DNA of 64,000 nt from Armatimonadota bacterium (GCA_038207085.1 JBBRAE010000013.1:8444-72443), one strand, 5' to 3'; shown: positions 2 through 16,200, numbered from the stretch's first letter. The notes: generated from the sequence alone by a model not told the origin. Translations and numbers: made by a program.

Positions 2-1786
2 ATCTGCCACATGGGCCCGTGCCGAATCACGCCGAAGTCACCCAAAGGCATCTGCGGAGCCGACGCGGACACGATCGCCGCGCGCAACCTGCTTCGTGAG
101 ATCGCCGCGGGAACAGCCGCGCACTCAGACCACGGGCGCATGCTTGTCAGAACGCTGAAGCTGGTTTCTGAGGACAAAGGCGGCGACTACAAGATCACCG
201 ACCCCGGCAGGCTGCACAACGCGGCACAGTTCTTCGAGATCGAGACCGAAGGCAAGACTGATCTGCAAATCGCGGGTGAGCTCGCTGACTTCTTCATGGG
301 ACAGTTCGCCTGGAGCGACAAACCGAACAAAACCCTGAAGCGCGCTCCTGAGAAGCGGCAGGCGGTTTGGAAGAAGCTTGAAATCGAGCCCCACGGCATC
401 GATTCGGCGGTCGTCGAACTGATGCACCGAACGCACATGGGCGTCGACCACGACTACAGGCACCTCATTATGGGCGGCCTGAAGTGCAGCATCGCTGACG
501 GCTGGGTCGGTTCGATTATCGCGACTACAGTTTCTGACATTCTCTTCGGAACCCCGAAACCGCTTAGGAGCAAAGTGAACCTCGGCGTGCTTTCTGAGAC
601 CAAGGTCAACATCATCGTCCACGGCCACGAGCCGACTCTCTCTGAGATGCTCGCCTGGGCGTCAAAAGACAAGGAACTCCTGGACTACGCAAAGAGCAAG
701 GGCGCGGACGGCATCAACATCGCCGGTATCTGCTGCACCGCAAACGAAATCCTGATGCGCCACGGTCTGCCGATCGCCGGAAACTTCCTCCAGCAGGAGC
801 TTGCGATTCTGACCGGCGCGGTCGAGATGATGATCGTCGACGTTCAGTGCGTTATGCCGAGCCTTCCTGAAATTATGAAGTGCTTCCACACCAGGCTCGT
901 CAGCACGTCGGAGATCGCCCAGACTTTCAACGCCGAACAGATCACGTTTGAGGTCGAGAAGGGCTTCGAGCACGCGAAGTCCCTCATTCGTGGGGCGATC
1001 GACAACTTCGCCAACCGCAACAAGGCCAAAGTTACAATCCCTGACCACTCGATGGACCTGGTAGCCGGGTTCTCCAACGAGACGGTCTTCCATATGCTCG
1101 GTGGACGATTCCGGAGCACATTCAGACCGCTGAACGATGCGATCATCGACGGCCGAATCAGAGGCGTCGTCGGGATCGTCGGCTGCAGCAACCCCAAGGT
1201 GAACACCGACGACCTGCACGTCACGCTGACGTCTGAGCTTATCAAGCGAAACGTGCTGGTGCTTCAGACCGGATGCTCCGCGATCGCCTGCGCGAAAGCT
1301 GGGTTCCTCACCCCTGAAGCCGCACGCGAACTTGCCGGTGAGACGCTTGCCGAGGTCTGCGAAGCAGTCGGTATTCCGCCTGTGCTGCATATGGGAAGCT
1401 GTGTTGATAACAGCCGAATCCTGCTTGCCGCGACAAATGTTTTGATGGAAGGTGGGCTCGGCGAGGATCTATCCGATCTGCCTGTAGCTGGAGCCGCACC
1501 GGAGTGGATGAGCGAGAAGGCGGTCGCGATCGGCCACTATTTCGTCGCTAGCGGACTCTACGTTGTCCTCGGACAGCCGCTCTATGTGGGGGGCAGCGAG
1601 AACGTTACCAAGCTGCTCACAGAGGAGATGGAAGGCCTCACCGGCGGCAAGTTCGCCTGGGAGCCCGATCCCGTCAAGGCGGCGGACATGATAATGGAGC
1701 ACATTGAAAAGAAACGCGACGCGCTCGGCATCAACCAGAAACGGGAGCGTAAGCTGCTTGATATGAAGGAGCGCAGAGAGCTGTAA
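2..1786 (+). CDS. cooS: Anaerobic Ni-CO dehydrogenase catalytic subunit (5'-partial)
   Basis: Frame open to the window edge (ICHMGPCRI); C-cluster ligand motifs HGHEP, ICCT, DVQC, GCSN, TGCS, GSCVD and SEKA; stop overlaps the next ATG (TAATG). Confidence 0.97.
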   Translation: MCHMGPCRITPKSPKGICGADADTIAARNLLREIAAGTAAHSDHGRMLVRTLKLVSEDKGGDYKITDPGRLHNAAQFFEIETEGKTDLQIAGELADFFMGQFAWSDKPNKTLKRAPEKRQAVWKKLEIEPHGIDSAVVELMHRTHMGVDHDYRHLIMGGLKCSIADGWVGSIIATTVSDILFGTPKPLRSKVNLGVLSETKVNIIVHGHEPTLSEMLAWASKDKELLDYAKSKGADGINIAGICCTANEILMRHGLPIAGNFLQQELAILTGAVEMMIVDVQCVMPSLPEIMKCFHTRLVSTSEIAQTFNAEQITFEVEKGFEHAKSLIRGAIDNFANRNKAKVTIPDHSMDLVAGFSNETVFHMLGGRFRSTFRPLNDAIIDGRIRGVVGIVGCSNPKVNTDDLHVTLTSELIKRNVLVLQTGCSAIACAKAGFLTPEAARELAGETLAEVCEAVGIPPVLHMGSCVDNSRILLAATNVLMEGGLGEDLSDLPVAGAAPEWMSEKAVAIGHYFVASGLYVVLGQPLYVGGSENVTKLLTEEMEGLTGGKFAWEPDPVKAADMIMEHIEKKRDALGINQKRERKLLDMKERREL

Positions 1787-4700
1787 TGAGTAAGATCATC
1801 GCCTCAAGCGCCATAATCGGCGCGCATAAGATATACAAACAAGCCGAGGAGATTGTCGCAAAGACGATAGCCGAGAAAGGCGCGGATAGCCCGGTAGCGT
1901 TCCCTGACACTACCTACTATCTGCCCGTGATCTACTCGATGCTCGGCACCAGGGTGGAAAAGCTCTCGGACATGCAGTCTGTTCTGGACGAGTGCAAGAG
2001 CCTTTTACCTCCGATCCCGTCCGACGACGTTTGGCTCCCCTATCTTGGTGGAACGCTCGACGCCGGTATGTCGACGCTTTTCGCGTTCGAGCTGATCGAG
2101 GCGTGCAAGTATCTGATAGGCCCGAACCCCGTTGATGGAATCTGGCTCGGGGCTGCGAGTGACGTTATCATCCGCGAGCGTGGAATCGAGTTCGTCGACG
2201 GCTCAGCTCCTGGTTTCGCCGCAGTTGTCGGCGCGGCTCCGGACAAAGAGACCGCCGTCAAGATCGCCCGCGAGCTTCAGGAGAAGAACCTCTACGTCTT
2301 CATAGCCGGTAACACCAACGGCGTATCGTTTGCCGAGCAGCTTGTGGAAGCCGGTGTCCAGATAGGCTGGGACACCAGGCTTGTTCCCTTCGGCAAAGAC
2401 ATATCCGCTGCGATCTATGCGCTCGGGTTTGCGAACCGCGCGGCGCTTTCTTTTGGAGGCGTTCAGCCCGGTGACTACGCTCGAAATCTGAAATACAACA
2501 AAGACCGAATCTTTGCGTTCGTAATGGCGCTTGGCGAGGTCGACGCAGAGAAGTATGCGGCAGCCGCCGGAGCGATCTCCTACGGCTTCCCAACGATCGC
2601 CGACACCGACATCCCGGAGATTCTGCCGACCGGTATCTGCACCTACGAGCACGTAGTCTCAAACGTTCCGCTTGACCGAATCGTCGAGAAATCGCTTGAA
2701 GTGCGCGGCTGCAAGATCAAGATCGCCAAAGTCCCGATCCCCGTAGCTTACGGCGCTGCCTTTGAGGGTGAGAGAATCCGCAAAGAGCAGACCTACGTCG
2801 AGTTCGGCGGAAACAAGACTCACGCGTTTGAGTATGTCACAACCAAAGACCTAACCGAGGTCGAAGACGGCAAGATCACCGTCGTCGGCCCAGAGATTGA
2901 CGACGTTCCAGAGGGCACCGCGCTTCCGCTTGCGATTTGGGTGGAAGTTGCAGGCCGCAAGATGCAGTCGGACTTTGAGTCGATCCTGGAGCGCCAGATC
3001 CACCACCTCATAAACGGCGCGGAGGGCGTCTGGCATATGGGCCAGCGCGATATCGTCTGGACCCGAATCTCAAAAGCCGCCAAGGAGAAGGGCTTCAAGA
3101 TCGCCCACTATGGCGAGATTTTGCACGCCAAGCTCTTGAACGAATACCCCGCCATCGTCGACAAGGTTCAGGTGACGCTCTTCACCGACCTGAAAGAAGT
3201 CGAGGAGCGAATCATTGAGGCCAGAAGAGTCTACCGCGAGAGGAACCTGCGCGTTGAGTCGATGACCGACGAGACCGTCGACACGTTTTACTCGTGCCTG
3301 CTCTGCCAGAGCTTCGCGCCGAACCACGTATGCGTCATTACACCCGAGCGACTCGGACTCTGCGGCGCTTACAACTGGCTCGACGGAAAGGCCGCCTACG
3401 AGATCGACCCCACAGGCCCAAACCAGCCGCTCACCAAGGGCGAGTGCATCGACCCCGTCCGCGGCCAGTGGAAAGACATTAACGATTACGTCTACGCAAA
3501 CTCCAAGCAGTCGATCACGTGCTTCAACGCCTATTCGATGCTTGAGGACCCGATGACGAGCTGTGGCTGCTTCGAGGCTATCGTCGCGCTCCTCCCTGAG
3601 TGCAACGGCGTCGCTATCGTCAACCGAGAGTATCCCGGTGACACACCGATGGGTATGCGGTTCTCCTCGCTTGCTGGTATGACCGGCGGCGGCCAGCAGA
3701 CTCCGGGATTCATCGGGATTGGCAAGGCGTATATCTCCAGTCGCAAGTTCATCTCCGCTGAAGGCGGACACAAACGAATCGTCTGGATGCCTGCTGAGCT
3801 TAAGGCAAGCCTGAAGGAAGATCTCGCGCACATCGGCGAGCAGCTTGGAATCGAAAACTATGCCGACCTTATCGCGGACGAAAACGTCGGGACAGATTCC
3901 GCGGCGATCAGCGCACATATGGAAAAGGTTGGCCACCCCGCGCTTTCGATGTGGGACGTGACCCAGCCGTCGCCTGAAGCCACCGAGGTCGACGTGAACC
4001 GTGGCAAAACCGCTGAAGCTCCTGCAGCACCTGTAGCCGCTGCGACCGCGTCTGCTCCGGCTCCGGCAAAAGAGACAGCACCAGTCGCAGTCGCCGAAAG
4101 GCCTGCGCCCGAGCATGCCAAGATTCCCGCAAACTCGACACCAGTTCACGCAGCACCTTCAAACGGCGGGAACGGTGGAAACGGTGACGGACTCTCTCAT
4201 GTGATTTCCGTCATCGAACAAGTGCGTGCCAACGGGCTTCCCACGGCAAACCCGGCATCGACTCCCGAGGAGCAGATGGCCGCCCTTCAGATGTCGACCG
4301 CTCTAAACTTGCTCACTGCAGGCGCGAATATGCTCCTGATGTATAGCGGTGCGCTCGGCGTTACGCCCGTAGCGGCGAAAGCTGTTCCATTGCCAGTCGA
4401 GACTTCTGTCGAACCAACCCCGGTTGTCGAGACCCAGAAGATATCGGAAGTGCTCGAAGCACCGCAGAAGCCGATCACATCGGCCAGCATCATCGTGCCG
4501 ACCAGCTTCGGTGTGCCTGGCGAGGCGTTCGCTGGCACAGTTCGTGAAGTGACGCTCGGTGGGTCTGGCACGCGGACGTCTTCGGTGACAATCGGCGGCG
4601 CAAACGCCCTGCCCTTCCGCCACTTCGAAGGAAACACCGGCCGCAAGCAGGTGATCGCTATGGAGGTCTTCGACAAAACGCCGAGGAACTATCCCAACTC

Positions 4701-5454
4701 CCTGCAAGAGGCATTTGGAAGTCTGATAAACGATCCCGCTGCGATGGCTAAATACTGCGTTGAGCAGTGCGGCGCTGAGATCATAAGCGTCCGACTTGAT
4801 GGAACTCATCCCGACAACGGCGATGCATCCATCGAGGCGGCCTCTGAGATCGTCGGAAAGGTGCTAAAAGCCGTCGGCGTGCCGATCATGGTCACCGGGC
4901 CCGGTCACTTCGAGAAGAACAACGCGGTTATGAAGCAGATCGCAAGCGACTTCGCGGGCGAGAACCTGCTGCTTAACTGGGCTGAAACCGACAACTACAA
5001 GACAGTCGCCGCCGCCGCGATGGGCTACAACCACTGCGTAGTCGCCCAGTCGCCAATCGACGTCAACATGGCGAAGCAGCTGAATATCCTGATGACCAAC
5101 ATGGGGCTTGCGCCTGAGAAGATCGTCATCGACGCCTATACCGGCGCAATCGGCTACGGTCTTGAATATACCTACTCCGTTATGGAGCGAATCAGGGCGT
5201 CGGCACTCACAAACGACGCGATGCTTGCGATGCCGATCATCGGCACACCGGGATTTGAAGTCGCACGCATCAAGGAGAGCAAAGCCCCCGAGAGTGCATT
5301 CCCGATCTGGGGAAGCGAGACCGAACGCGGGGCGTTGCTTGAGATATCGACCGCGATGAGCCTCCTAAACGCAGGCGCGGACGTTCTGGTGATGTATCAC
5401 CCCGTAGCCGCCCGCACAGTGAAGCGCAAAATCGCAGAGATGAACGAAAAATAG
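1786..5454 (+). CDS. acsB: Acetyl-CoA synthase (AcsB) fused via an Ala/Pro-rich linker to the corrinoid Fe-S protein small subunit (AcsD)
   Basis: A-cluster motifs CLLCQSFAPNHVC, GLCGAYNW and TSCGCFE in aa 1-~724; AcsD motifs VREVTLG, SPIDVNMAKQLN and GYGLEYTYSVMERIR in the last ~315 aa; no internal stop. Confidence 0.95.
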   Translation: MSKIIASSAIIGAHKIYKQAEEIVAKTIAEKGADSPVAFPDTTYYLPVIYSMLGTRVEKLSDMQSVLDECKSLLPPIPSDDVWLPYLGGTLDAGMSTLFAFELIEACKYLIGPNPVDGIWLGAASDVIIRERGIEFVDGSAPGFAAVVGAAPDKETAVKIARELQEKNLYVFIAGNTNGVSFAEQLVEAGVQIGWDTRLVPFGKDISAAIYALGFANRAALSFGGVQPGDYARNLKYNKDRIFAFVMALGEVDAEKYAAAAGAISYGFPTIADTDIPEILPTGICTYEHVVSNVPLDRIVEKSLEVRGCKIKIAKVPIPVAYGAAFEGERIRKEQTYVEFGGNKTHAFEYVTTKDLTEVEDGKITVVGPEIDDVPEGTALPLAIWVEVAGRKMQSDFESILERQIHHLINGAEGVWHMGQRDIVWTRISKAAKEKGFKIAHYGEILHAKLLNEYPAIVDKVQVTLFTDLKEVEERIIEARRVYRERNLRVESMTDETVDTFYSCLLCQSFAPNHVCVITPERLGLCGAYNWLDGKAAYEIDPTGPNQPLTKGECIDPVRGQWKDINDYVYANSKQSITCFNAYSMLEDPMTSCGCFEAIVALLPECNGVAIVNREYPGDTPMGMRFSSLAGMTGGGQQTPGFIGIGKAYISSRKFISAEGGHKRIVWMPAELKASLKEDLAHIGEQLGIENYADLIADENVGTDSAAISAHMEKVGHPALSMWDVTQPSPEATEVDVNRGKTAEAPAAPVAAATASAPAPAKETAPVAVAERPAPEHAKIPANSTPVHAAPSNGGNGGNGDGLSHVISVIEQVRANGLPTANPASTPEEQMAALQMSTALNLLTAGANMLLMYSGALGVTPVAAKAVPLPVETSVEPTPVVETQKISEVLEAPQKPITSASIIVPTSFGVPGEAFAGTVREVTLGGSGTRTSSVTIGGANALPFRHFEGNTGRKQVIAMEVFDKTPRNYPNSLQEAFGSLINDPAAMAKYCVEQCGAEIISVRLDGTHPDNGDASIEAASEIVGKVLKAVGVPIMVTGPGHFEKNNAVMKQIASDFAGENLLLNWAETDNYKTVAAAAMGYNHCVVAQSPIDVNMAKQLNILMTNMGLAPEKIVIDAYTGAIGYGLEYTYSVMERIRASALTNDAMLAMPIIGTPGFEVARIKESKAPESAFPIWGSETERGALLEISTAMSLLNAGADVLVMYHPVAARTVKRKIAEMNEK

Positions 5455-5558: not shown

Positions 5559-6899
5559 ATGGCACTTTCAGGCTTAGATATATTCAAACTGTTACCGAAA
5601 ACCAACTGCGGCGAGTGCGGCGTGCCTACATGCATGGCATTCGCGATGAAGCTTGCATCGAAGGGCGCGGAACTTGCTGCTTGTCCGTATGCGTCCGATG
5701 AGGCAAAATCCAAGCTCGGAGCCGCGAGCAAGCCGCCGATCAGGCTCGTCAAGGTCGGCACTGGCGACACAGAAGTTCAGGTCGGCAACGAAACCGTGAT
5801 GTTCAGGCACGAGAAGACGTTCGTCCACCCGACGGCTATCGCTATATCGTTCACCGACGACCAGGCCGGGGACGTGCTCGCCCATCAGACCGCTGTCGTT
5901 CGCGACTACTGCCTTGAGCGAGTCGGCGAGGAATTGAAGATCGACCTCGCGGTTGTCGACAATGTCACGGGCGAGGCGGAACCTTTCGTCGCCGCAGTCA
6001 AGGAAGTCGCGGGGACGACCGGCAAGGCGATCGTTCTGCAGAGCTCTTACCCCGAGGTGATCGAGGCGGCTCTTCAGGCCATTCCGGGGCAGCGACCGCT
6101 CATCCACGCAGCGACACCCGAAAACATCGACGCAATGGCCGCGCTTGCGCTCAAATACAACGCGCCCATCGTCGCCAGAGCCAACACGCTCGACGAACTT
6201 GCCGCGCTTACTACAAAGCTTGCGGCGCTTGGCGTTCAGGATATTGTGCTCGATATCCCGGCTGACAACCCGGCCGCTATGATGCAGTATAATACAATCA
6301 TCAGGAAAGCCGCTCTGAAGGGCAGCGTTGAGCCGATGGGCTACCCGGTGATGAACTTCCTTATGGGAATGGACCTGCCGTCGCTCGTCGCAGACGCATC
6401 GACGCTCATAAGCAAGTATTCATCGATCCTCGTTATCGACACGATAGCCCTCCAGGCACTGCTTCCGATGATGATGCTCAGACAGAACATCTACACCGAC
6501 CCGCAGAAACCAATTCAGGTTGAGCCGAAGATCTATCCCATCGGCGAGGCAACAGAGAACTCACCGATCCTTGTGACGACGAACTTCTCGCTCACGTATT
6601 TTATTGTGTCGGGTGAGATCGAGAACTCTGGCGTCCCGGCGCACCTCGCGATTGTCGAATGCGAAGGAATGAGCGTCCTTACGGCATGGGCTGCCGGCAA
6701 GTTCTCCGGTGAGAAGATCGGCGCATTCATCAAGCAGTCAGGCCTTGAAGACCAGGTTAAGACCAGAAAGTTGATCATACCTGGATACGTCGCACAGATC
6801 AGCGGCGAACTTGAGGAATCACTCCCAGGCTGGGAGATCCTCGTCGGCCCGCAGGAAGCAAGTGACCTCGGCGCGTATATGAAGATGCACGCGGCATAG
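5559..6899 (+). CDS. acsC: Corrinoid iron-sulfur protein large subunit
   Basis: N-terminal NCGECGVPTC..CPY [4Fe-4S] motif, FRHEKTF, TTNFSLTYF, SVLTAWAAGKF; RBS aaggag. Confidence 0.97.
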   Translation: MALSGLDIFKLLPKTNCGECGVPTCMAFAMKLASKGAELAACPYASDEAKSKLGAASKPPIRLVKVGTGDTEVQVGNETVMFRHEKTFVHPTAIAISFTDDQAGDVLAHQTAVVRDYCLERVGEELKIDLAVVDNVTGEAEPFVAAVKEVAGTTGKAIVLQSSYPEVIEAALQAIPGQRPLIHAATPENIDAMAALALKYNAPIVARANTLDELAALTTKLAALGVQDIVLDIPADNPAAMMQYNTIIRKAALKGSVEPMGYPVMNFLMGMDLPSLVADASTLISKYSSILVIDTIALQALLPMMMLRQNIYTDPQKPIQVEPKIYPIGEATENSPILVTTNFSLTYFIVSGEIENSGVPAHLAIVECEGMSVLTAWAAGKFSGEKIGAFIKQSGLEDQVKTRKLIIPGYVAQISGELEESLPGWEILVGPQEASDLGAYMKMHAA

Positions 6900-7012
6900 C
6901 CCGGTTTATTCGTGAAGCGAATAAAGTTTTCGCTAACCCGGTTTATTCGTGAAGCGAATAAAGCTCTTGCTAAGAGAGCATCATTCACGTTTCTCGTGAA
7001 TAATGCGGGCTA
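6897..7012 (+). repeat. Family-1 palindromic repeat: half copy (6897-6933) plus full 79-bp copy (6934-7012)
   Basis: TA(G/A)CCCG..TTTATTCG-TGAAG-CGAATAAAG...ATTCACG-N5-CGTGAATAATGCGGGCTA; recurs at 31129, 60285, 61873 and 63719. Confidence 0.92.
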
Positions 7013-7062
7013 ACAGATGTTGGCTTGTAGCTCATCGACCTGTGGTCGCAACTCATAAACTT

Positions 7063-8976
7063 ATGTATTCGATACAATTCTTACCTGCTGATATAGAGCT
7101 AAAGGTCCAACCCGGCACACTGGTCTCCGACGCCGCCATCATGGCCGGCCTCGAAGACCTGCACCTGCCGTGCGGTGGCAAAGGCACGTGTGGGCGCTGC
7201 CTTGTTGAAGTTGTATCCGGCAATCCTATACAGACCTCTACCGCGCGCTTGGACGTCGCGCTTGCTGGTAAGCGGCTCGTTATGGCCTGCCAGACCAAGG
7301 TGAACGAAGACCTTGTAATCAGGATCCCCGAGCAACGGGAGACTGCGATGAGAGTAGTCGGCGACAGCCATTTTCTCGTCGGGGAAGAGTATCTGCCCGA
7401 TCGCAGCGCGCTTTCGTCACTCTATCGAATAGAGAAGCTCACGGTACCTCCAGCTACAATCGAAGAACACTACAGCGACTGGCAAAGGCTTGTCCGAGAG
7501 ATCGGCGCAAGGATCGGGTCGAGCAACGTCACTACCGACGTATGGGTTCTGCGTTCGCTCGCCGATGCTCTTCGCGCCAAGGATGGGAAAGTCACCGTCG
7601 TTCTTCAGGAGGACGACTGCGGGTACCGCCTCTGGAACGTCAACGCAGGTCACAGCCCTGTCACCGTGTACGGGCTTGCAATAGACATAGGCACCACGAC
7701 TATCGCGGTGCAGCTAGTCGATCTGAGCACCGGCGAAGTCGCCGCAAGCCGAACACTTTATAACGCGCAAATAGGTCGCGGCGCGGACGTTATTAGTCGG
7801 ATCGATTATGCAAAGAACCCCGTTCGCCTGTTCGAGCTTCGCGAACTTGTTCTCGGCACAATCAACGAACTGATTGAAGGCGTCGCGGAGGAAGTCGGGC
7901 TCCCGCCTGTGGAGATTCGAGCTGCGTTCATCGCCGGGAATACGACGATGGTGCACCTGCTCCTCGCGCTCCCACCCAAGCATATTCGCGAGACACCCTA
8001 CGTTCCGACGGTGAACACCATCCCCACCCTTTTTGCGCCAGACGTTGGGCTTCGTATCCACTCCCAGGCCGCGATCGCCTTTGCGCCCGGAGTCGGAAGC
8101 TACGTTGGCGGCGACATCACTTCGGGGCTTCTCTGCACTGAGATCCCAAAAAACCACGACGAGGTCTTTTTGTTCCTCGACATCGGCACCAACGGCGAGA
8201 TTGTGCTTGGAAACGCCGACTGGATGGTAGCCTGCGCCTGCTCCGCTGGCCCAGCCTTTGAAGGCAGCGGAATCAAGTGCGGTATGCGCGCGACAACAGG
8301 GGCGATCGAGTATATCGAAATATCTGACGATAAACGCGAAGTTCGCTATGATGTGATCGGCGAAACCAAACCGGCGGGCATTTGCGGCTCCGGCCTCATC
8401 TGCCTGCTCGGCGAGTTGCTGGTAAGGGGCGTGATAGACCAGTCGGGACGCTTCAACATCAATCTCGACACCGACCGCATCATCACGCAGGGGTCGAACA
8501 AGGCGTTCGTCATTGAGTGGGCTGAAAACACCGAAAGCGGCGAGAACCTGGTCATCACAGAGCCAGATATGGAGAACCTGATGCGCACCAAGGCCGCAAT
8601 TTACGGCGCGTGCAGCCTCATTCTGACAAACGTGGGGATCGAATGGAACGCCATATCGCGAATCTACATCGCAGGCGGTTTTGGCAGATACATTCAGATA
8701 GAAGACGCCGTGCTAATCGGCCTTCTTCCCGATTTACCCTACGACAGGTTCACTTACATCGGCAACTCATCGCTTACCGGAGCTTATATCGCCCTGCTTT
8801 CTCGCGACCACAGGCAGTTGCTGAACGAGATCGCAGGCATGATGACCTATATCGATCTTAGCAGCGATTCGCACTACATGGACGCTTATATCAGCGCGCT
8901 TTTCCTGCCACACACTGATATGTCGCAGTTTCCATCGGTCGCAAAGCGCCTTACCGATTTGAAATCTACAACCTAA
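7063..8976 (+). CDS. acsV: Reductive activator of corrinoid proteins (2Fe-2S plus ASKHA ATPase, AcsV/RACo)
   Basis: CGGKGTCGRC..MACQ, DIGTTT, GNTTM, DIGTNGE, CSAGPAFEG, GICGSG, AGGFG; start moved to ATG 7063 because ATG 7003 lies inside the repeat. Confidence 0.93.
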   Translation: MYSIQFLPADIELKVQPGTLVSDAAIMAGLEDLHLPCGGKGTCGRCLVEVVSGNPIQTSTARLDVALAGKRLVMACQTKVNEDLVIRIPEQRETAMRVVGDSHFLVGEEYLPDRSALSSLYRIEKLTVPPATIEEHYSDWQRLVREIGARIGSSNVTTDVWVLRSLADALRAKDGKVTVVLQEDDCGYRLWNVNAGHSPVTVYGLAIDIGTTTIAVQLVDLSTGEVAASRTLYNAQIGRGADVISRIDYAKNPVRLFELRELVLGTINELIEGVAEEVGLPPVEIRAAFIAGNTTMVHLLLALPPKHIRETPYVPTVNTIPTLFAPDVGLRIHSQAAIAFAPGVGSYVGGDITSGLLCTEIPKNHDEVFLFLDIGTNGEIVLGNADWMVACACSAGPAFEGSGIKCGMRATTGAIEYIEISDDKREVRYDVIGETKPAGICGSGLICLLGELLVRGVIDQSGRFNINLDTDRIITQGSNKAFVIEWAENTESGENLVITEPDMENLMRTKAAIYGACSLILTNVGIEWNAISRIYIAGGFGRYIQIEDAVLIGLLPDLPYDRFTYIGNSSLTGAYIALLSRDHRQLLNEIAGMMTYIDLSSDSHYMDAYISALFLPHTDMSQFPSVAKRLTDLKSTT

Positions 8977-9006
8977 AATCTGAAATCATCACTGGAGGTC
9001 TTTCAT

Positions 9007-9921
9007 TTGAAAAGCATTCTTGAAAGAGTCGCCGCTGGAGAAGTTCTTATCTCCGACGGCGCGATGGGAACATTTCTGCAGGCCAAGGGTCTGCAGCCGG
9101 GCGAGTGCCCCGAGTCCTGGTGCGTGCTGCGCCCTGAGGACGTGAAAAGCGTAGCCGATGCATACGTCGCGGCTGGCTGCGATATGATCGAAACCGACAG
9201 CTTCGGCGGCACCTGCTACAAGCTGCGCGAGTATGGGCTTGAGGACAAGGTTGCCGACTACAATCGTGCCGCTGCACAGATTGCGAAGTCTTCTATCGGC
9301 GACAAGGGCTACGTGATTGCGTCGATCGGCCCCACGGGTCAGATCGTAGAGGACGAAGGCGGTATGGTCACCCCTGAAGGCCTTTACAACGCCTTCAAAG
9401 AGCAGGCTGTTGCGCTTGAAGAAGGTGGAGCAGACGCACTCTGCCTCGAAACGATGTCGAGCGTCACCGAGGCCGTACAGGCCATCAAAGCCGCGAAAGA
9501 GAACACGAAGCTACCCGTGATCTGCACGTTCACCTTCGAGCCGGGAGCCCGCGGGTTCCGCACGATGATGGGAACCGACCCAGCGACAGCCGTAACTGCT
9601 GCAGTTGAGGCGGGAGCTGATGTCGTCGGAGCAAACTGCGGAAACGGCATCGACAACATGATCCAGATCACCAAGGATATGCGCGCGGCCGTCCCGAACA
9701 CTCCTATACTCATCCACGCCAACGCCGGAATGCCTGTATTTGAAGACGGCAAGACCCTGTTCAAAGACACTCCCGAGCAGATGGCAGGAAAGGTCCAGGA
9801 GCTAGTCGCCGCCGGTGCGAATATCATCGGTGGATGCTGTGGCACCAACCCCAACCACATCGCCGCAATGGCCGAAGCCGCACGTGGCAACGGTGGCTGC
9901 GGTTGCTGCTGTAATCACTAA
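9007..9921 (+). CDS. Stand-alone homocysteine S-methyltransferase domain (MetH N-terminal/BHMT fold) with a Cys-rich tail
   Basis: SDGAMGT, GANCG, ANAGMP, IIGGCCGT Zn motifs; TTG start after ggagg; ends GCGCCCNH. Confidence 0.9.
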   Translation: MKSILERVAAGEVLISDGAMGTFLQAKGLQPGECPESWCVLRPEDVKSVADAYVAAGCDMIETDSFGGTCYKLREYGLEDKVADYNRAAAQIAKSSIGDKGYVIASIGPTGQIVEDEGGMVTPEGLYNAFKEQAVALEEGGADALCLETMSSVTEAVQAIKAAKENTKLPVICTFTFEPGARGFRTMMGTDPATAVTAAVEAGADVVGANCGNGIDNMIQITKDMRAAVPNTPILIHANAGMPVFEDGKTLFKDTPEQMAGKVQELVAAGANIIGGCCGTNPNHIAAMAEAARGNGGCGCCCNH

Positions 9922-9929
9922 TTACCTTG

Positions 9930-9956
9930 TGGAGGTGGGTAATCAGCCCACCTCCA
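9930..9956. terminator. Stem-loop after the acs operon, between convergent genes
   Basis: tggaggtggg-taatcag-cccacctcca; a second hairpin lies at ~10013-10040. Confidence 0.6.
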
Positions 9957-10054
9957 GCTATATTCTTCGCCAGATCAAAGTGTGTGTCTGAAACGGGAAA
10001 CGCGTCAATACGTAGTGTCCGGTCGCTGTGCAGGACACTATGAGAGATGAGAAG

Positions 10055-12518: not shown

Positions 12519-12589
12519 GTTCAGAGTGGAGATTTCAGAGTGCAGAGCAGGGAAATGACTCCCGTCGCTCTGCACTCTGAACTCTGAAC
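12519..12589. repeat. Intergenic hairpin of 7-nt units (TTCAGAG/CTCTGAA)
   Basis: gttcagagtggagatttcagagtgcagagc ... gctctgcactctgaactctgaac. Confidence 0.75.
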
Positions 12590-14382
12590 TATAGCGCCCA
12601 GGGGTGGGTGATTTTCGGGGTATTGGCGTAGCGTTTCATAGAGACGACTAGCCGCTGTCCCGCGCCGGGGGCGATCTTCACGGTAAACGTCCTGCCGTTC
12701 ACGGGAACGCTCTTGCCGCCATCGGGCTTGACTGAGAGTATCTGGTGTTCACCATAAGCGCCGCCCTGGACGATGACAGTATGCTCTTTGCCGCTGCTGG
12801 TGTTTACGAGCACGAGCGTCGCAGAGTCGTCGGCAAGCTTCTCAACAAGTGCAGCGCAGTCCTCGCTTATGCCGGGACGCTTGCGCTCGGGGTCCAGGTA
12901 GAAGAATCTGGTTATGAGAAGCTGACCCTGCCATCGGGGCATGACTCCTCCAGTCATCGCGTTCACGAGCGACCCGCAAGCACCGCCGCTGGGCGAACTG
13001 GGTAGCTCGGGGTCGACACCTTTCGCAGCGGCTTGCTTTACGAGCTCAAAGCTTGATTTGGCCTGCTCTAGCTGCTTAGTGATATACTCGACAGGCCAAG
13101 TGGGATTCTTGCCTTGAAGATATGCGAACCACTCGGCTTCGTGTCCAGCTTCAAAGTCGTCGCTATAGGTGGTCGCGCCGGTAAGCATTGAGCGCTCGTT
13201 AATGCGATCAAGATCGGCCTGTTTCATGCTGGCGAGATAGGTGTTGGCAAGTATCGTGGAGTAGAGCCCGCCGTGCTTGAAGTCGCCCCAAGTGTAGTCG
13301 TTGAACCCGGCTGCGTTGATGCCGCCCGGAACGCCCAGCACAGTTCCGTTGTCATCGATATACCGATGCTTCCAGAGCGTGTCCCCAAGCATTCGCCAGT
13401 TGTCGTAGTAGCTTGTGTCGCCCGTCAAGAGGAGACCGTTGGACCAGCCGGCGTTCGGGCCGGAGAGCACGACCAGCAGCCCGCCGAAGCGCGCGGTAGG
13501 GCGGTCCCAACCGAGGATGCCAGCCCACCAGTCCTCGGGAATAGAGCCGTCCCGGTTTACGTTGGTAGGCATTATGCCGCCGTTTGCCTTGCAGCGATCG
13601 CGCCACGCGTTGACATAGTCGACGGTCATCGTCCGGTAGTGTTCGTCGCCTGTGAGCAGGAACGCGTTTGTGGTAAGGCAGGTATAGATTAGGCTTGCAG
13701 GGCCTTCATATGCGTAGTCGGTGTCAGGGAGCCAGAAGTTGGTGACTTTCGGGTCGAACTGCTCCTTCTTCTCAACTGCTCCTCGACCACCCGACAAGAT
13801 GCTCTTCATCGTTTTGGTCTTGGGGTCATAGTTCTGAACGAGCGTGCCCTGACCATCGTAGAACGAGGCGAACTTGAGCGCGAGCCGTCGGTACTCGGGG
13901 TCGTCGGACATTGCAAGCGCCGACATGAAGAATCCCTCGTAGCCCTGGCCCATGTGGTTTGCGTCGTGGCAGGTGAGAAACTCGTTGGTGCAGAACCCCT
14001 GCTCGGTCATCTGATCGAGTCCCGCACGCCAAACTCTCCACCACTGGTCTTTGATCGATGAGTCCCCGCCGAGCGCGTAGATGAGCGGCCACTTATACAT
14101 CAAGGTGAACACCCCGTGCGGGTGCTGCGCGTTCTTGCCCTGGGTGTCGTATTTGCCCCTGACATACCCATTGGGAAGCGTGAAAGTCTTGGCGTTAAGC
14201 TCTATCACTTTGGCGTTGATATCGAGCAGTTCCCGCTCTTTCAGCGCCCACTCAGGGGCAGGCATCGGGCTTGAGATCGATACTATGGGTGTCATAGGCC
14301 TTTCAACCCCTGCCTGGGAAGCCGCACAGGACATCCCTGATATTACGGCTAATCCAGTCATTACCAGCTTGGATACACTCAT
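12589..14382 (-). CDS. Exported protein of unknown function, paralogue of 14413-16200
   Basis: Signal-like N-terminus; shares WA.KERE.LD.N.K, DPEYRRLALKFASFYDG, NAWRDR.KANGGI.P and Q.GAY.EHQ with the neighbour; alternative GTG start at 14397. Confidence 0.85.
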   Translation of the reverse strand: MSVSKLVMTGLAVISGMSCAASQAGVERPMTPIVSISSPMPAPEWALKERELLDINAKVIELNAKTFTLPNGYVRGKYDTQGKNAQHPHGVFTLMYKWPLIYALGGDSSIKDQWWRVWRAGLDQMTEQGFCTNEFLTCHDANHMGQGYEGFFMSALAMSDDPEYRRLALKFASFYDGQGTLVQNYDPKTKTMKSILSGGRGAVEKKEQFDPKVTNFWLPDTDYAYEGPASLIYTCLTTNAFLLTGDEHYRTMTVDYVNAWRDRCKANGGIMPTNVNRDGSIPEDWWAGILGWDRPTARFGGLLVVLSGPNAGWSNGLLLTGDTSYYDNWRMLGDTLWKHRYIDDNGTVLGVPGGINAAGFNDYTWGDFKHGGLYSTILANTYLASMKQADLDRINERSMLTGATTYSDDFEAGHEAEWFAYLQGKNPTWPVEYITKQLEQAKSSFELVKQAAAKGVDPELPSSPSGGACGSLVNAMTGGVMPRWQGQLLITRFFYLDPERKRPGISEDCAALVEKLADDSATLVLVNTSSGKEHTVIVQGGAYGEHQILSVKPDGGKSVPVNGRTFTVKIAPGAGQRLVVSMKRYANTPKITHPWAL

Positions 14383-14412
14383 TCGAACAGAACCCACCTT
14401 TCAGCTCGAAGC

Positions 14413-16200
14413 TCATTTGCCCCAAGGCATCCGAAGCGTAGGAGCGTTTGCATACCTCTTCATTGAGACGACGAAACGCTTGCCTGATTGCGGCGCAAGC
14501 TTTACCGCGAACAAAGTTCCGTTAACCTTGACCGATGAGCCACCTTCAGGCTTTACAGACAGGCACTGATGCTCAGCGTAGGCCCCGGTCTGCACAAGCA
14601 CGGTGTGCTCTGTCGTCGGACTAGTGTTGACCAGCATGAGCGTCGCCGAATCATCTGACATAGACTCAATCATCGCCGCGCAGTCCGCAGTGATTCCCAT
14701 TTTCTTCTGTTCGGGGTCGAAGTAACGGAACCTCGCGAGAAGCGGCTGACCGTTCCATTTCGGCACTACAGCGCCCATCATCAGGTGGACGAGCGGACCA
14801 CACCAGCCTACGCCGGTGGCATTGGATCTTTCTGTGTGCTGGCCTGCTGCGATCTCCTTTACGAGAGTTTCGTTGGTTTTCTTGCAGTTGTCGATGAGCT
14901 TATCCAAAGACTTGTCGACCCACTCAGGGTTCTTGCCAGCAAGCCACCTGATCCAGTCGAACTCGTACCCGATTTCGTAGAACTCCCCGAAGCCGGCTAT
15001 GCTTACGAGCATAGAGCGCTCCAGACAGCGACTCAGGTCTTCTTTCTTCATTGTGGCGAGGTAGATGTTGGTCATCACCTGGCTGTAGACGCCTTGACCA
15101 TCGCCGTACCACGGAGTTCCGTACCAGCCGAGGTCGCTGCTGTAGCGCGCCGGGAAGTTGGTGACCTCTCCCTTGTCGTTGGTGTAGCGGTTCTTCCACC
15201 ACTCATCGGCCATATGTCTCCAGTTGTCCCAGTAGGAGGTGTCGCCCGAGAGAAGCGTGCCGTTTGACCATCCCGCAGTAGGCCCTGCCGTGACGACGAA
15301 CCCGCCCGTGAACTTGTCAGAGGTCCAGCCAAGGACCCCTCCCCACCAGTCATCGGGAATAGTGCCGTCGAGCCTGACTTTGGTCGGGACAATGCCTCCG
15401 TTAGCCTTTGTCCGGTCGCGCCATGCGTTGATATAGTCGAGAGCGACCTTCTTGTAGCGTACGTCACCTGTCATCGCGTAGGCATTGGTCAAGAAGCAGG
15501 TCGTAGTCATATTGGCCGGCGATTCAAAGGCGTAGTCCTCAACGGCTGTCCAATATTTGGTGTGTACGGGGTCGAACTTCGAGTTATCGAGCAGTGGGCC
15601 GTTGCCTCCGTGCATGGCACTTCGCATGACTTTATGAACGGGGTCATAGTTTGGGACCTCGGGGTTTGATCCGTCATAGAACGACGCGAACTTGAGAGCG
15701 AGCCTGCGGTATTCGGGGTCATCGAACATCATCAGCGCGCCGTTGAAGAAGTTACCGTACTGCTCTCCGATATGGTAGCCTTCCATGCTCTTAATGAACT
15801 CGTTGACGTAGAACCCTTCCTCAGTGCACTGGGAGACGTTGCCTTTGATGGCTTTCCACCAGACTTCGCGAACAGGCTCTCCTGCGCCCAGAATATAGAC
15901 AATCGGCAGCTTGAAGAACGTTTCGTAGTAATCGTCGGGTGACTGTCCACCGCCGACACCATATTTCATACACCTGTGGCCATTAGGGAGCAGATACGCC
16001 TTGTCCCAAAGCTCTACGGCCTTGGTGTTCAAATCGAGGATCTCGCGCTCTTTGACGGCCCACGACGGCGTAACCATCTCTGTGTCCACATTAATGGTCG
16101 GAACGCCCTTCACGGGCTCACAGCGGGCCTCTCCGTGCGACGGGACGACGGCAATGCCGAGGAGCAAAACTAAAACCAGACTACACACAACTTCGTTCAC
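14413..16200 (-). CDS. Exported protein of unknown function (probably a helical-barrel enzyme)
   Basis: GTG start with ggagg RBS; hydrophobic signal peptide; full-length similarity to the downstream paralogue. Confidence 0.87.
   Translation of the reverse strand: MNEVVCSLVLVLLLGIAVVPSHGEARCEPVKGVPTINVDTEMVTPSWAVKEREILDLNTKAVELWDKAYLLPNGHRCMKYGVGGGQSPDDYYETFFKLPIVYILGAGEPVREVWWKAIKGNVSQCTEEGFYVNEFIKSMEGYHIGEQYGNFFNGALMMFDDPEYRRLALKFASFYDGSNPEVPNYDPVHKVMRSAMHGGNGPLLDNSKFDPVHTKYWTAVEDYAFESPANMTTTCFLTNAYAMTGDVRYKKVALDYINAWRDRTKANGGIVPTKVRLDGTIPDDWWGGVLGWTSDKFTGGFVVTAGPTAGWSNGTLLSGDTSYWDNWRHMADEWWKNRYTNDKGEVTNFPARYSSDLGWYGTPWYGDGQGVYSQVMTNIYLATMKKEDLSRCLERSMLVSIAGFGEFYEIGYEFDWIRWLAGKNPEWVDKSLDKLIDNCKKTNETLVKEIAAGQHTERSNATGVGWCGPLVHLMMGAVVPKWNGQPLLARFRYFDPEQKKMGITADCAAMIESMSDDSATLMLVNTSPTTEHTVLVQTGAYAEHQCLSVKPEGGSSVKVNGTLFAVKLAPQSGKRFVVSMKRYANAPTLRMPWGK

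What the first reader, a model, noticed from the sequence alone, without database searches (positions are those of the whole stretch)
5559..9921. acs operon ends in a homocysteine methyltransferase rather than AcsE: possible folate-independent route from acetyl-CoA to methionine
Seen: acsC-acsV is followed after 30 bp by a lone Hcy-binding MetH-type domain with no pterin, B12 or reactivation domain; acsE is not in the window; a hairpin closes the operon. Known: MetH Hcy domains accept methyl from methyl-cobalamin, and MetE-core enzymes in Dehalococcoides-type organisms are thought to take methyl from CFeSP. Inference: ACS cleaves acetyl-CoA, CODH oxidises the CO, and methyl-CFeSP methylates homocysteine (or another thiol) directly through a MetH-fold enzyme.
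Basis: partly seen in the sequence, partly recalled or inferred. Interest (0 to 1): 0.75.

Follow-up and report, generated by a model that had tools for sequence, protein, structure and literature searches.

The report
Homocysteine methyltransferase ending an acetyl-CoA-synthase operon
A small gene that is only the homocysteine-binding piece of B12-dependent methionine synthase closes a CO-dehydrogenase/acetyl-CoA-synthase operon and is probably this bacterium's methionine-forming enzyme, taking its methyl group from a cobalt-carrying protein that has still to be identified by experiment.

Summary
acsA, a fused acsB-acsD, acsC and acsV are followed after 30 nt by a 304-aa protein that is only a MetH-type homocysteine (Hcy) domain, and a strong hairpin follows it.

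- For: the acsV-HcyMT junction recurs in 36 of 80 related loci (Armatimonadota, Acidobacteriota). A different arrangement links the gene to acs in Victivallales and Bacillota. None of ten other genomes carrying such operons has a stand-alone acsE. This genome has no MetE, no MetH and no other stand-alone Hcy module.
- Against: this genome has a full folate methyl branch (fhs-folD-metF-metV plus an AcsE-family methyltransferase) and a stand-alone corrinoid protein with its own activase. Both sets are conserved across its order, where only 5 of 21 genomes have CFeSP. A 75%-identical orthologue sits in a genome without CFeSP.

An ordinary "MetH in pieces" is therefore a serious rival.

The scan noted the same arrangement earlier in other genomes. 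My searches found no paper describing it.

The parts
11..1786 (+). acsA, Ni-CODH catalytic subunit. The true start lies about 130 nt upstream of the window.
   Evidence: PF03063 564 bits; TIGR01702 643 bits, above its cut-off of 478, with the match starting at model position 46.
1786..5454 (+). acsB-acsD fusion: full-length acetyl-CoA synthase (residues 1-724) joined by a linker to the CFeSP small subunit (about residues 910-1220).
   Evidence: NF040764 1062 bits over residues 12-724; NF003376/PF03599 over residues 911-1219. The same continuous frame is seen in related loci, for example L014, L016, L039 and L029.
5559..6899 (+). acsC, CFeSP large subunit (4Fe-4S, TIM barrel, corrinoid domain).
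   Evidence: NF003195 566 bits, above its cut-off of 306; PF04060 and PF03599.
7003..8976 (+). acsV/RACo, ATP-dependent reductive activase of the corrinoid protein.
   Evidence: PF14574, PF17651, PF17650 and PF00111. NF040756 scores 620 bits, below its cut-off of 800.
8994..8998 (+). Shine-Dalgarno GGAGG, 8 nt before the TTG start of the HcyMT gene.
   Evidence: Read from the sequence.
9007..9921 (+). Stand-alone MetH-type homocysteine S-methyltransferase (HcyMT, P0001, 304 aa). Zn ligands are C211, C277 and C278. It carries the clade motif GECPESWC and a lineage-specific Cys-rich tail, GGCGCCCNH.
   Evidence: PF02574 232 bits. Aligns to 1q7m at E 2e-43. Invariant columns in 34 sequences. The tail is seen only here and in L013.
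9930..9956 (+). Intrinsic-terminator-like hairpin that closes the operon.
   Evidence: 11-bp stem, dG -21.7 kcal/mol, z -4.1.

Best explanation
The gene encodes a stand-alone zinc methyl-corrinoid:homocysteine methyltransferase, that is, the Hcy module of MetH as a free protein. It is the methionine-forming end of a methionine synthase whose other modules are separate proteins.

In this operon it is co-transcribed with CODH, ACS, CFeSP (AcsC plus the AcsD domain fused to AcsB) and the activase AcsV. I propose that it takes the methyl group directly from methyl-Co(III)-CFeSP, giving methionine and Co(I)-CFeSP, with AcsV repairing oxidised Co(II). The methyl on CFeSP would come from ACS-catalysed cleavage of acetyl-CoA, with the CO oxidised by AcsA. 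It could also come from methyl-THF if the genome's AcsE-family enzyme serves CFeSP.

Shown: domain identity, Zn ligands, operon structure, conserved linkage, and the absence of MetE, MetH and any other free Hcy module. Inferred: CFeSP as the direct donor, the direction of flux, and homocysteine as the thiol. The module is probably not specific for one carrier and may also accept methyl from the stand-alone corrinoid protein.
For: (1) MetH-type Hcy domain with an intact Zn triad.

(2) Operon: 30-nt gap after acsV, a ribosome-binding site and a terminator.

(3) Of the 80 related loci, 36 have acsV ending within 400 nt upstream of the HcyMT gene. Six more (Victivallales, Bacillota) place HcyMT at the head of a CODH/ACS operon, next to the MetE-core-like p349. 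Linkage therefore survives rearrangement.

(4) In 5 of 5 tail-type genomes tested there is no AcsE above cut-off, and a separate MetH with its own Hcy domain exists: G001 has a 306-aa piece plus an 840-aa piece, and G005 has a 1183-aa MetH. The acs-linked copy is thus an extra paralogue.

(5) Head-type genomes: none of 5 has a stand-alone AcsE. In G008 the only cap-domain corrinoid protein found lies inside its 806-aa MetH, which leaves CFeSP as the only free corrinoid protein found.

(6) G004 and G005 carry separate HcyMT paralogues, one beside CFeSP and one beside a stand-alone corrinoid protein.

(7) Own genome (100% complete): no PF01717, no PF02965, no MetH, and only two PF02574 genes, this one and a YitJ-like fusion.

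(8) Precedent: core-MetE/MesB is proposed to use methyl-CoFeSP (PMC7005905 and PMC7857596, passages read).
Against: (1) G028, in the same order and 98% complete, has a 75%-identical orthologue but no CFeSP. PF03599 only cross-hits its AcsE-like gene, and the HcyMT gene lies beside a GDSL lipase. In the tree it is among the nearest rows to the window's protein.

(2) G018 and G016 have acs genes, but their HcyMT lies elsewhere.

(3) acs-linked and corrinoid-protein-linked members are interleaved in the tree, so there is no CFeSP-specific clade; the tree needs at least 3-8 changes of context.

(4) Every tail-type genome tested, and this one, also has the stand-alone corrinoid protein.

(5) Many of the 36 syntenic loci come from related peat MAGs and look like one transferred block, so they are not independent.

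(6) The operon holds a second candidate for the same reaction, p349.

There is no biochemical or expression evidence.
Confidence: 0.45

Rival explanations
1. Ordinary MetH in pieces. The gene is the Hcy module of a four-piece, folate-dependent methionine synthase. Methyl-THF, made by the fhs-folD-metF-metV cluster, is used by the AcsE-family methyltransferase on contig C32 to methylate the stand-alone corrinoid protein on C6. That protein is kept active by the adjacent RACo-type activase, and HcyMT moves the methyl to homocysteine. Its place at the end of the acs operon would reflect co-regulation or hitch-hiking, not a physical partnership with CFeSP.
For: All four pieces exist in this genome. 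In the window's order the AcsE-like gene is found in 20 of 21 genomes and the corrinoid-protein orthologue (68-81% identity) in 21 of 21, but AcsC in only 5 of 21. In three CFeSP-less relatives the AcsE-like gene lies with metF-metV-fhs, and in the two examined the RACo-corrinoid-protein pair is kept. HcyMT orthologues occur without CFeSP (G028) and inside a metX-metW operon (G024). Same-family relatives have a different stand-alone Hcy module (38-42% identity) that this genome lacks, so P0001 is the only candidate to fill that role. In 14 of 80 loci an HcyMT gene lies within 3.5 kb of such a corrinoid protein. Precedent: the split MetH / MtgCDE system (PMC12478193, passages read; PMC5764234, search listing only).
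Against: It does not explain why the gene is joined to acsV in 36 of 80 loci, or why it sits at the head of acs operons in other phyla. It does not explain why genomes with a complete MetH keep an extra acs-linked copy. G008 shows no free corrinoid protein of this type. The YitJ-like N-terminal domain could instead be the Hcy module for the stand-alone corrinoid protein.
Confidence: 0.3
2. p349, the MetE-core-like enzyme at the operon head, is the methyl-CFeSP:homocysteine methyltransferase. HcyMT would then act on another thiol, or run the other way and load CFeSP from an S-methyl donor so that ACS can build acetyl-CoA without a folate branch.
For: p349 and HcyMT co-occur in the operon in 5 of 5 tail-type genomes and are adjacent in 6 of 6 head-type loci. 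p349 has a MetE/URO-D/MtaA fold with an invariant H223-x-C225...C321 motif. Operons of this type mostly lack acsE, so some other methyl entry or exit is needed. Two enzymes for one reaction would be redundant.
Against: The Hcy-domain residues and Zn site are those of MetH. An orthologue sits in a metX-metW methionine operon. This genome has no other methionine synthase. From general knowledge, demethylation of a thioether by Co(I) is thermodynamically poor. No transporter or S-methyl catabolic gene is linked.
Confidence: 0.12
3. A corrinoid-independent homocysteine methyltransferase that uses S-methylmethionine, SAM or betaine (MmuM/YagD or BHMT type), sitting in the acs operon by chance.
For: PF02574 also covers these enzymes. 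NF005718 (BHMT) scores 240 bits and NF007020 scores 102 bits.
Against: Both scores are below their cut-offs of 338 and 215. Solved MetH Hcy domains match far better than BHMT or YagD-type HMT. Relatives lie beside corrinoid proteins, RACo activases, MetH activation domains and cobalamin salvage genes.
Confidence: 0.05

Closest known systems
[quoted passage not shown]
   Same: Same fold family (PF02574). The alignment covers residues 8-288 at E 2e-43. The Zn-binding Cys of the 'NC' and 'GGCCGT' motifs are conserved. The expected chemistry is the same: methyl-Co(III) plus Zn-activated homocysteine.
   Different: It is a free 304-aa protein with no pterin, cap/B12 or activation domain. It is encoded after acsV in a CODH/ACS operon. 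It has an invariant clade motif, GECPESWC, that the T. maritima sequence lacks in the alignment.
Split methionine synthase / MtgE of Phaeobacter inhibens and Ruegeria pomeroyi (PMC12478193, passages read; PMC5764234, listing only)
   Same: A stand-alone PF02574 Hcy module works with a separate corrinoid protein, a separate pterin-binding methyltransferase and a RamA-type activase. This genome has all four pieces.
   Different: Those are aerobic Alphaproteobacteria whose corrinoid hub is shared with glycine-betaine demethylation. Here the Hcy module is transcribed with CFeSP, ACS and CODH. I did not measure sequence relatedness to MtgE.
MesB / core-MetE of Dehalococcoides mccartyi (PMC7005905; PMC7857596)
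   Same: The proposed logic is the same: methyl-CoFeSP from acetyl-CoA cleavage methylates homocysteine directly, bypassing AcsE and MetF, and the gene is linked to acsCD.
   Different: MesB has the MetE barrel; this protein has the MetH Hcy fold. This genome has CODH, MetF and an AcsE-family gene, all of which D. mccartyi lacks according to those papers. The operon's other gene, p349, is the MetE-fold one. Its membership in MesB (at least 130 bits to DET0516) could not be tested here.
MttB-homologue / HcyMT / corrinoid protein / activation-domain cluster proposed for Ca. Electryoneota and 'diverse bacteria' (PMC9324843, one passage read)
   Same: A stand-alone Hcy module beside a corrinoid protein is read as a new corrinoid-dependent route to methionine. 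The Bacteroidales loci L030 and L058 here look like this type.
   Different: There is no CODH/ACS or CFeSP in that cluster, and the methyl donor module is an MttB homologue.
AcsE (MeTr), the usual methyltransferase partner of CFeSP
   Same: It occupies the position in an acs cluster where a methyl-CFeSP-handling methyltransferase is expected.
   Different: The fold and substrate are unrelated (pterin-binding TIM barrel versus Zn-thiol Hcy domain). AcsE-family genes are missing as stand-alone genes in 10 of 10 other genomes with this operon type that I tested.

Membership tests
MetH homocysteine-binding module (PF02574, corrinoid-dependent type) | PF02574 domain above the curated cut-off | tested here: met
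   232.4 bits against a cut-off of 22, over residues 14-291.
MetH homocysteine-binding module (PF02574, corrinoid-dependent type) | Three Zn-ligand cysteines (one Cys, then a Cys-Cys pair) | tested here: met
   C211, C277 and C278 are invariant in 34 sequences and align with the 'NC' and 'GGCCGT' motifs of 1q7m. That these are the Zn ligands is recalled knowledge.
MetH homocysteine-binding module (PF02574, corrinoid-dependent type) | Closer to MetH Hcy domains than to BHMT or SMM/SAM-type HMT | tested here: met
   152 bits to T. maritima MetH, against 68 to BHMT and 47 to 5dml HMT.
MetH homocysteine-binding module (PF02574, corrinoid-dependent type) | Methyl transfer from methylcobalamin or a methyl-corrinoid protein to homocysteine | not testable with these tools
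   Needs an enzyme assay.
Full-length MetH (TIGR02082) | Hcy, pterin, B12 and activation modules in one chain | tested here: not met
   TIGR02082 scores 159 bits against a cut-off of 1011, and only the first module matches. No PF02965 in the genome.
Multi-piece split MetH (Price 2018; MtgCDE) | Separate Hcy module, pterin methyltransferase, corrinoid protein and RamA/RACo activase in one genome that lacks MetE and MetH | tested here: met
   HcyMT on C13; AcsE-like on C32 (NF005719 304 bits, above 259); 209-aa corrinoid protein plus 630-aa RACo on C6; no PF01717 and no PF02965.
Multi-piece split MetH (Price 2018; MtgCDE) | The pieces are jointly required for methionine synthesis | not testable with these tools
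   Needs genetics.
MesB / core-MetE | MetE C-terminal barrel with a His-x-Cys...Cys Zn site | tested here: not met
   HcyMT belongs to PF02574, not to the MetE fold. The neighbouring p349 does meet this feature.
MesB / core-MetE | At least 130 bits to DET0516 (the criterion of PMC7857596), applied to p349 | not testable with these tools
   No DET0516 sequence was available from a tool. p349 has no Pfam hit at E<=1 and only 32 bits to NF002119.
BHMT / SMM-type HMT / YitJ | Score above the NCBIfam equivalog cut-off | tested here: not met
   NF005718 240 < 338; NF007020 102 < 215; NF006396 268 < 453, with only the N-terminal half matched.

The most novel reading that the evidence does not exclude
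The operon type cooC - MetE-core-like methyltransferase - cooC - acsA - acsB/D fusion - acsC - acsV - MetH-type HcyMT is a self-contained, acsE-free methyl shunt between acetyl-CoA and the thiol/methionine pool. It has spread by transfer through Armatimonadota, Acidobacteriota, Lentisphaerota and Bacillota. Its two unrelated Zn-thiol methyltransferases would give CFeSP both an exit (homocysteine to methionine) and an entry (an S-methyl donor), so that CODH/ACS works with no folate branch at all.
Probability: 0.15. Interest if true: 0.8.

Novelty: new variant of a known kind. Interest (0 to 1): 0.55.

Why it matters
Methionine synthases that take methyl from corrinoid proteins instead of folate are so far known or proposed only for the MetE fold (MesA-C). 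A MetH-fold module wired to the Wood-Ljungdahl corrinoid protein would be a convergent second solution. It would also explain CODH/ACS operons without acsE in abundant peat and gut lineages that are usually scored as acetogens from gene lists. That bears on how carbon flow is inferred from metagenomes. It also gives a directly testable system: four or five soluble proteins and one assay.

Tried and rejected
- Complex prediction with AcsC residues 310-446 plus HcyMT, both as alignments: no answer, score 0.01 against a mark of 0.32. This is not evidence either way.
- The look-up of sequencing runs, kind rna, for window 8300-10000: no RNA holder was listed, so co-transcription could not be checked and read laying was not used.
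- The 356-aa ORF after the stand-alone corrinoid protein (C6) has no Pfam or NCBIfam hit even at E<=1 and no similarity to p349. It may not be a real gene.
- I first read the C32 gene as the acsE of this acs operon. I dropped that reading after its distribution in the order showed it is independent of CFeSP.
- I expected a CFeSP-specific HcyMT clade; the trees do not show one. Both are 'quick' trees with SH-aLRT support only.
- MesB membership of p349 could not be tested because no reference sequence came from any tool.
- One paper search failed on a term containing a slash and was re-run with other terms.
- Literature searches found no paper describing a PF02574 gene in an acs operon or an AcsB-AcsD fusion. 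The library covers open-access papers only, and no supplements were read.


Full report
**1. What is in the window**

ORF listing and family scans give five genes on the plus strand:
- acsA (Ni-CODH), 11-1786, cut at its 5' end by the window.
- A 1222-aa fusion, 1786-5454, of full-length acetyl-CoA synthase AcsB with the CFeSP small subunit AcsD.
- acsC, 5559-6899.
- acsV/RACo, 7003-8976.
- A 304-aa ORF, 9007-9921, that matches only PF02574 (homocysteine S-methyltransferase, 232 bits).

An 11-bp GC-rich hairpin at 9930-9956 follows the stop. It folds at -21.7 kcal/mol, z -4.1, and 0 of 200 shuffles fold as well. proB and obg follow on the opposite strand.

**2. What the protein is**

Against solved structures the best match is the Hcy domain of T. 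maritima MetH (1q7m, E 2e-43, residues 8-288), followed by full-length Thermus-type MetH entries. BHMT (E 1e-17) and a YagD-type HMT (3e-11) are much weaker. NCBIfam models for BHMT, HMT and YitJ all score below their cut-offs.

In an alignment of 34 family members (A1), C211 and the pair C277/C278 are invariant. They align with the 'NC' and 'GGCCGT' motifs of MetH; that these are the zinc ligands is recalled knowledge. A clade motif, G-E-C-P-E-x-W, is also invariant. The Cys-rich tail GGCGCCCNH occurs only here and in locus L013.

The protein is therefore a free MetH-type Hcy module. The expected chemistry is attack of zinc-activated homocysteine on a methyl-Co(III) corrinoid.

**3. The operon is longer than the window**

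The window starts at position 8444 of contig C13. Upstream lie cooC (C13:5476-6270), a 349-aa gene (p349, C13:6322-7371) and a second cooC (7464-8228), directly before acsA.

p349 has these properties:
- No Pfam hit even at E<=1, and only 32 bits to NF002119 'methionine synthase'.
- Motifs IGSLP, IDEP, H223-C-C225 and PSC321G, invariant in 26 sequences.
- A predicted structure with pLDDT 86 and pTM 0.88. By Foldseek it resembles first the catalytic barrels of cobalamin-independent methionine synthases, then URO-D, then an MtaA-like methyltransferase of M. mazei (E about 1e-8 to 1e-6, TM about 0.55-0.6).
- Nearest language-model clusters named 'methionine synthase family protein'.

p349 is thus a second, unrelated zinc-thiol methyltransferase in the same operon, of the MetE-core kind that Deobald 2020 and Price 2021 connect with CoFeSP. 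Whether it belongs to MesB in Price's sense I could not test.

**4. Is the linkage conserved?**

The search for related loci returned the best 80 of 101 relatives. I scored their flanks by tblastn with the window's proteins.

| Context of the HcyMT gene | Loci (of 80) | Notes |
|---|---|---|
| acsV (at least 50% identity) ends within 400 nt upstream | 36 | Armatimonadota and Acidobacteriota MAGs, usually with acsA-acsB/D-acsC before it. One of the 36, L092, has a shortened HcyMT and was left out of the trees. |
| HcyMT at the head of a CODH/ACS operon | 6 | L020, L023, L029, L035, L049, L071 (Victivallales, Bacillota). Order is HcyMT, p349 homologue (63% identity), two cooC, then CODH/ACS. |
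| HcyMT next to p349 on a contig too short to reach further | 2 | L037, L038 |
| Stand-alone cap+B12 corrinoid protein within 3.5 kb | 14 | Often with a RACo-type activase, URO-D-type methyltransferases, DUF1638 or a MetH activation-domain protein |
| None of these | 22 | |

The sample is biased towards close relatives. Many of the 36 come from related peat MAGs and look like one mobile block, with 65-80% protein identity across two phyla. They are therefore not 36 independent observations. The differently arranged head-type operons are the more independent support.

**5. Other genomes with the operon**

In five tail-type genomes (two complete Armatimonadota chromosomes and three Acidobacteriota):
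- p349 lies just upstream of the acs genes in 5 of 5, split in two pieces in one.
- None has an AcsE above the NF005719 cut-off. The best matches lie inside MetH-sized frames, or in a 364-aa frame beside a corrinoid protein.
- All have a complete MetH of their own. G001 has an adjacent 306-aa Hcy piece and 840-aa pterin-B12-activation piece next to a YitJ-like gene. G005 has a 1183-aa MetH.
- All have the stand-alone corrinoid protein.

So in those genomes the acs-linked HcyMT is an additional paralogue, not the missing half of MetH. G004 and G005 carry yet another paralogue beside the stand-alone corrinoid protein.

In five head-type genomes no stand-alone AcsE was found. The one match at the cut-off lies in an 806-aa MetH. 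In that genome (G008) the only cap-domain corrinoid protein is the MetH itself, so CFeSP is the only free corrinoid protein found. Its completeness is unknown.

**6. This genome and its own order point the other way**

The genome (100% complete, 83 contigs) has:
- An fhs-folD-metF-metV-AcsE-like cluster on contig C32 (NF005719 304 bits, above the cut-off of 259; the strict AcsE model NF040758 scores only 157 of 370).
- A RACo-type activase followed by a 209-aa cap+B12 corrinoid protein on C6, near metK, def and fmt.
- No MetE domain, no MetH activation domain and no MetH.
- Only two PF02574 genes: the one studied, and a 605-aa YitJ-like Hcy-MTHFR fusion.

Among 20 relatives of the same order plus this genome:

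| Gene | Genomes with it (of 21) |
|---|---|
| AcsE-like, above cut-off | 20 |
| Corrinoid-protein orthologue, 68-81% identity | 21 |
| AcsC | 5 |
| p349 | 4 |

In three CFeSP-less relatives the AcsE-like gene again lies with metF-metV-fhs. In the two examined, the RACo-corrinoid-protein pair is kept. These genes are therefore the order's own MetH in pieces and are independent of CODH/ACS.

HcyMT orthologues also occur apart from acs:
- G028 (75% identity) has no CFeSP by protein or family search, and the gene lies beside a GDSL lipase.
- G018 and G016 (68%) have acs genes, but the HcyMT lies on other contigs.
- G024 (56%) has it in a metX-metW operon.

In the trees, acs-linked and corrinoid-protein-linked members are interleaved, and G028 is among the nearest rows to the window's protein (quick trees, SH-aLRT support only). 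The same-family relatives have a different stand-alone Hcy module (38-42% identity) that this genome lacks. P0001 is thus the only free Hcy module left to serve the conserved pterin, corrinoid-protein and RACo pieces.

**7. Weighing**

It is well supported, at about 0.85, that this gene makes methionine from homocysteine and a methylated corrinoid protein. The supporting points are fold, Zn site, corrinoid-related neighbours throughout the family, the metXW operon in G024, and the absence of any other methionine synthase here.

Which carrier it uses is open. I put direct use of methyl-CFeSP at about 0.45. That rests on operon membership here, linkage conserved through rearrangement, extra paralogues in genomes that already have MetH, acsE-less operons, and G008. 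I put use of only the stand-alone corrinoid protein, an ordinary four-piece MetH, at about 0.30. That rests on lineage conservation of the other pieces, orthologues without CFeSP, and the lack of a specific clade.

The two readings are not exclusive. The interleaved tree fits a module that accepts methyl from whichever corrinoid protein is present.

The claim of a folate-independent organism is not supported for this genome. The narrower claim that this operon type moves methyl between acetyl-CoA and methionine without AcsE remains the most coherent reading of the acsE-less carriers.

p349 complicates any simple scheme. Either the two enzymes are redundant, or they serve different carriers or thiols, or one of them loads CFeSP.

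**8. What is known**

- Core-MetE/MesB with CoFeSP as proposed donor: PMC7005905 (abstract and passages) and PMC7857596 (abstract, passages, section 8).
- Split MetH and the MtgBCDE hub: PMC12478193 (abstract and passages) and PMC5764234 (listing only).
- A cluster of MttB homologue, HcyMT, corrinoid protein and activation protein, proposed as a new route to methionine: PMC9324843 (one passage).
- yitJ upstream of the Sporomusa carbonis WLP cluster: bioRxiv 10.1101/2024.06.21.600036 (passages).
- Peat papers that score Acidobacteriota as Wood-Ljungdahl acetogens: PMC12296737 (passages).

None of my searches turned up a description of a PF02574 gene inside an acs operon. Earlier notes of this scan report the same arrangement in other genomes, so it is not new to the scan.

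I rate it a new variant of a known kind, with moderate to high interest, lowered here because this genome offers a conventional alternative.

Noticed in passing
window 1786-5454: AcsB (ACS) and AcsD (CFeSP small subunit) are fused in one 1222-aa frame with a linker of about 180 residues. The fusion recurs in related loci of several phyla, for example L014, L039, L029 and L049. One literature search listed no paper describing such a fusion.
   Followed up: partly
contig C13:6322-7371 (about 1.1-2.1 kb upstream of the window start), locus L095: A 349-aa gene between two cooC genes, with no Pfam family. It has a MetE-core/URO-D/MtaA-like barrel and an invariant HxC...C motif, and is 63% identical to the gene next to HcyMT in Victivallales. 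It is a second candidate methyl-corrinoid:thiol methyltransferase of the operon.
   Followed up: yes
window 9889-9918 (HcyMT C-terminus): A Cys-rich tail, GGCGCCCNH. Among 79 homologues examined it appears only in L013, as CCCGC. It could be an extra metal site or have no function.
   Followed up: partly
window 9100-9123 (HcyMT residues 32-39): The motif GECPESWC, with invariant C34 and nearly invariant C39, is present in the stand-alone clade but absent from T. maritima MetH in the alignment. It could mark a clade-specific docking, redox or metal feature.
   Followed up: no
window 12589-14397 and 14413-16200, minus strand: Two adjacent ORFs of 602 and 595 aa with no Pfam or NCBIfam match at E<=0.001.
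   Followed up: no
L033:11067-15388 and similar Acidobacteriaceae loci: In Acidobacteriaceae the acs-linked HcyMT is followed by cbiZ, cobD/cbiB, a PduO-type adenosyltransferase and then a 352-aa cap+B12 protein. Corrinoid salvage genes and a second corrinoid protein thus sit directly after the operon.
   Followed up: partly
L112:361-3085 (G024): A 56%-identical HcyMT is the first gene of an HcyMT-metX-metW cluster, which ties the family directly to methionine biosynthesis.
   Followed up: partly
L093:8832-9902 (contig C6): A 356-aa ORF that overlaps the end of the stand-alone corrinoid protein gene has no family hit at all. In relatives this place is usually held by DUF1638, and this genome's DUF1638 homologues lie elsewhere (C5, C1).
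   Followed up: partly
L029:8871-10876: Victivallales carry two tandem, nearly identical HcyMT copies at the head of the acs operon.
   Followed up: no
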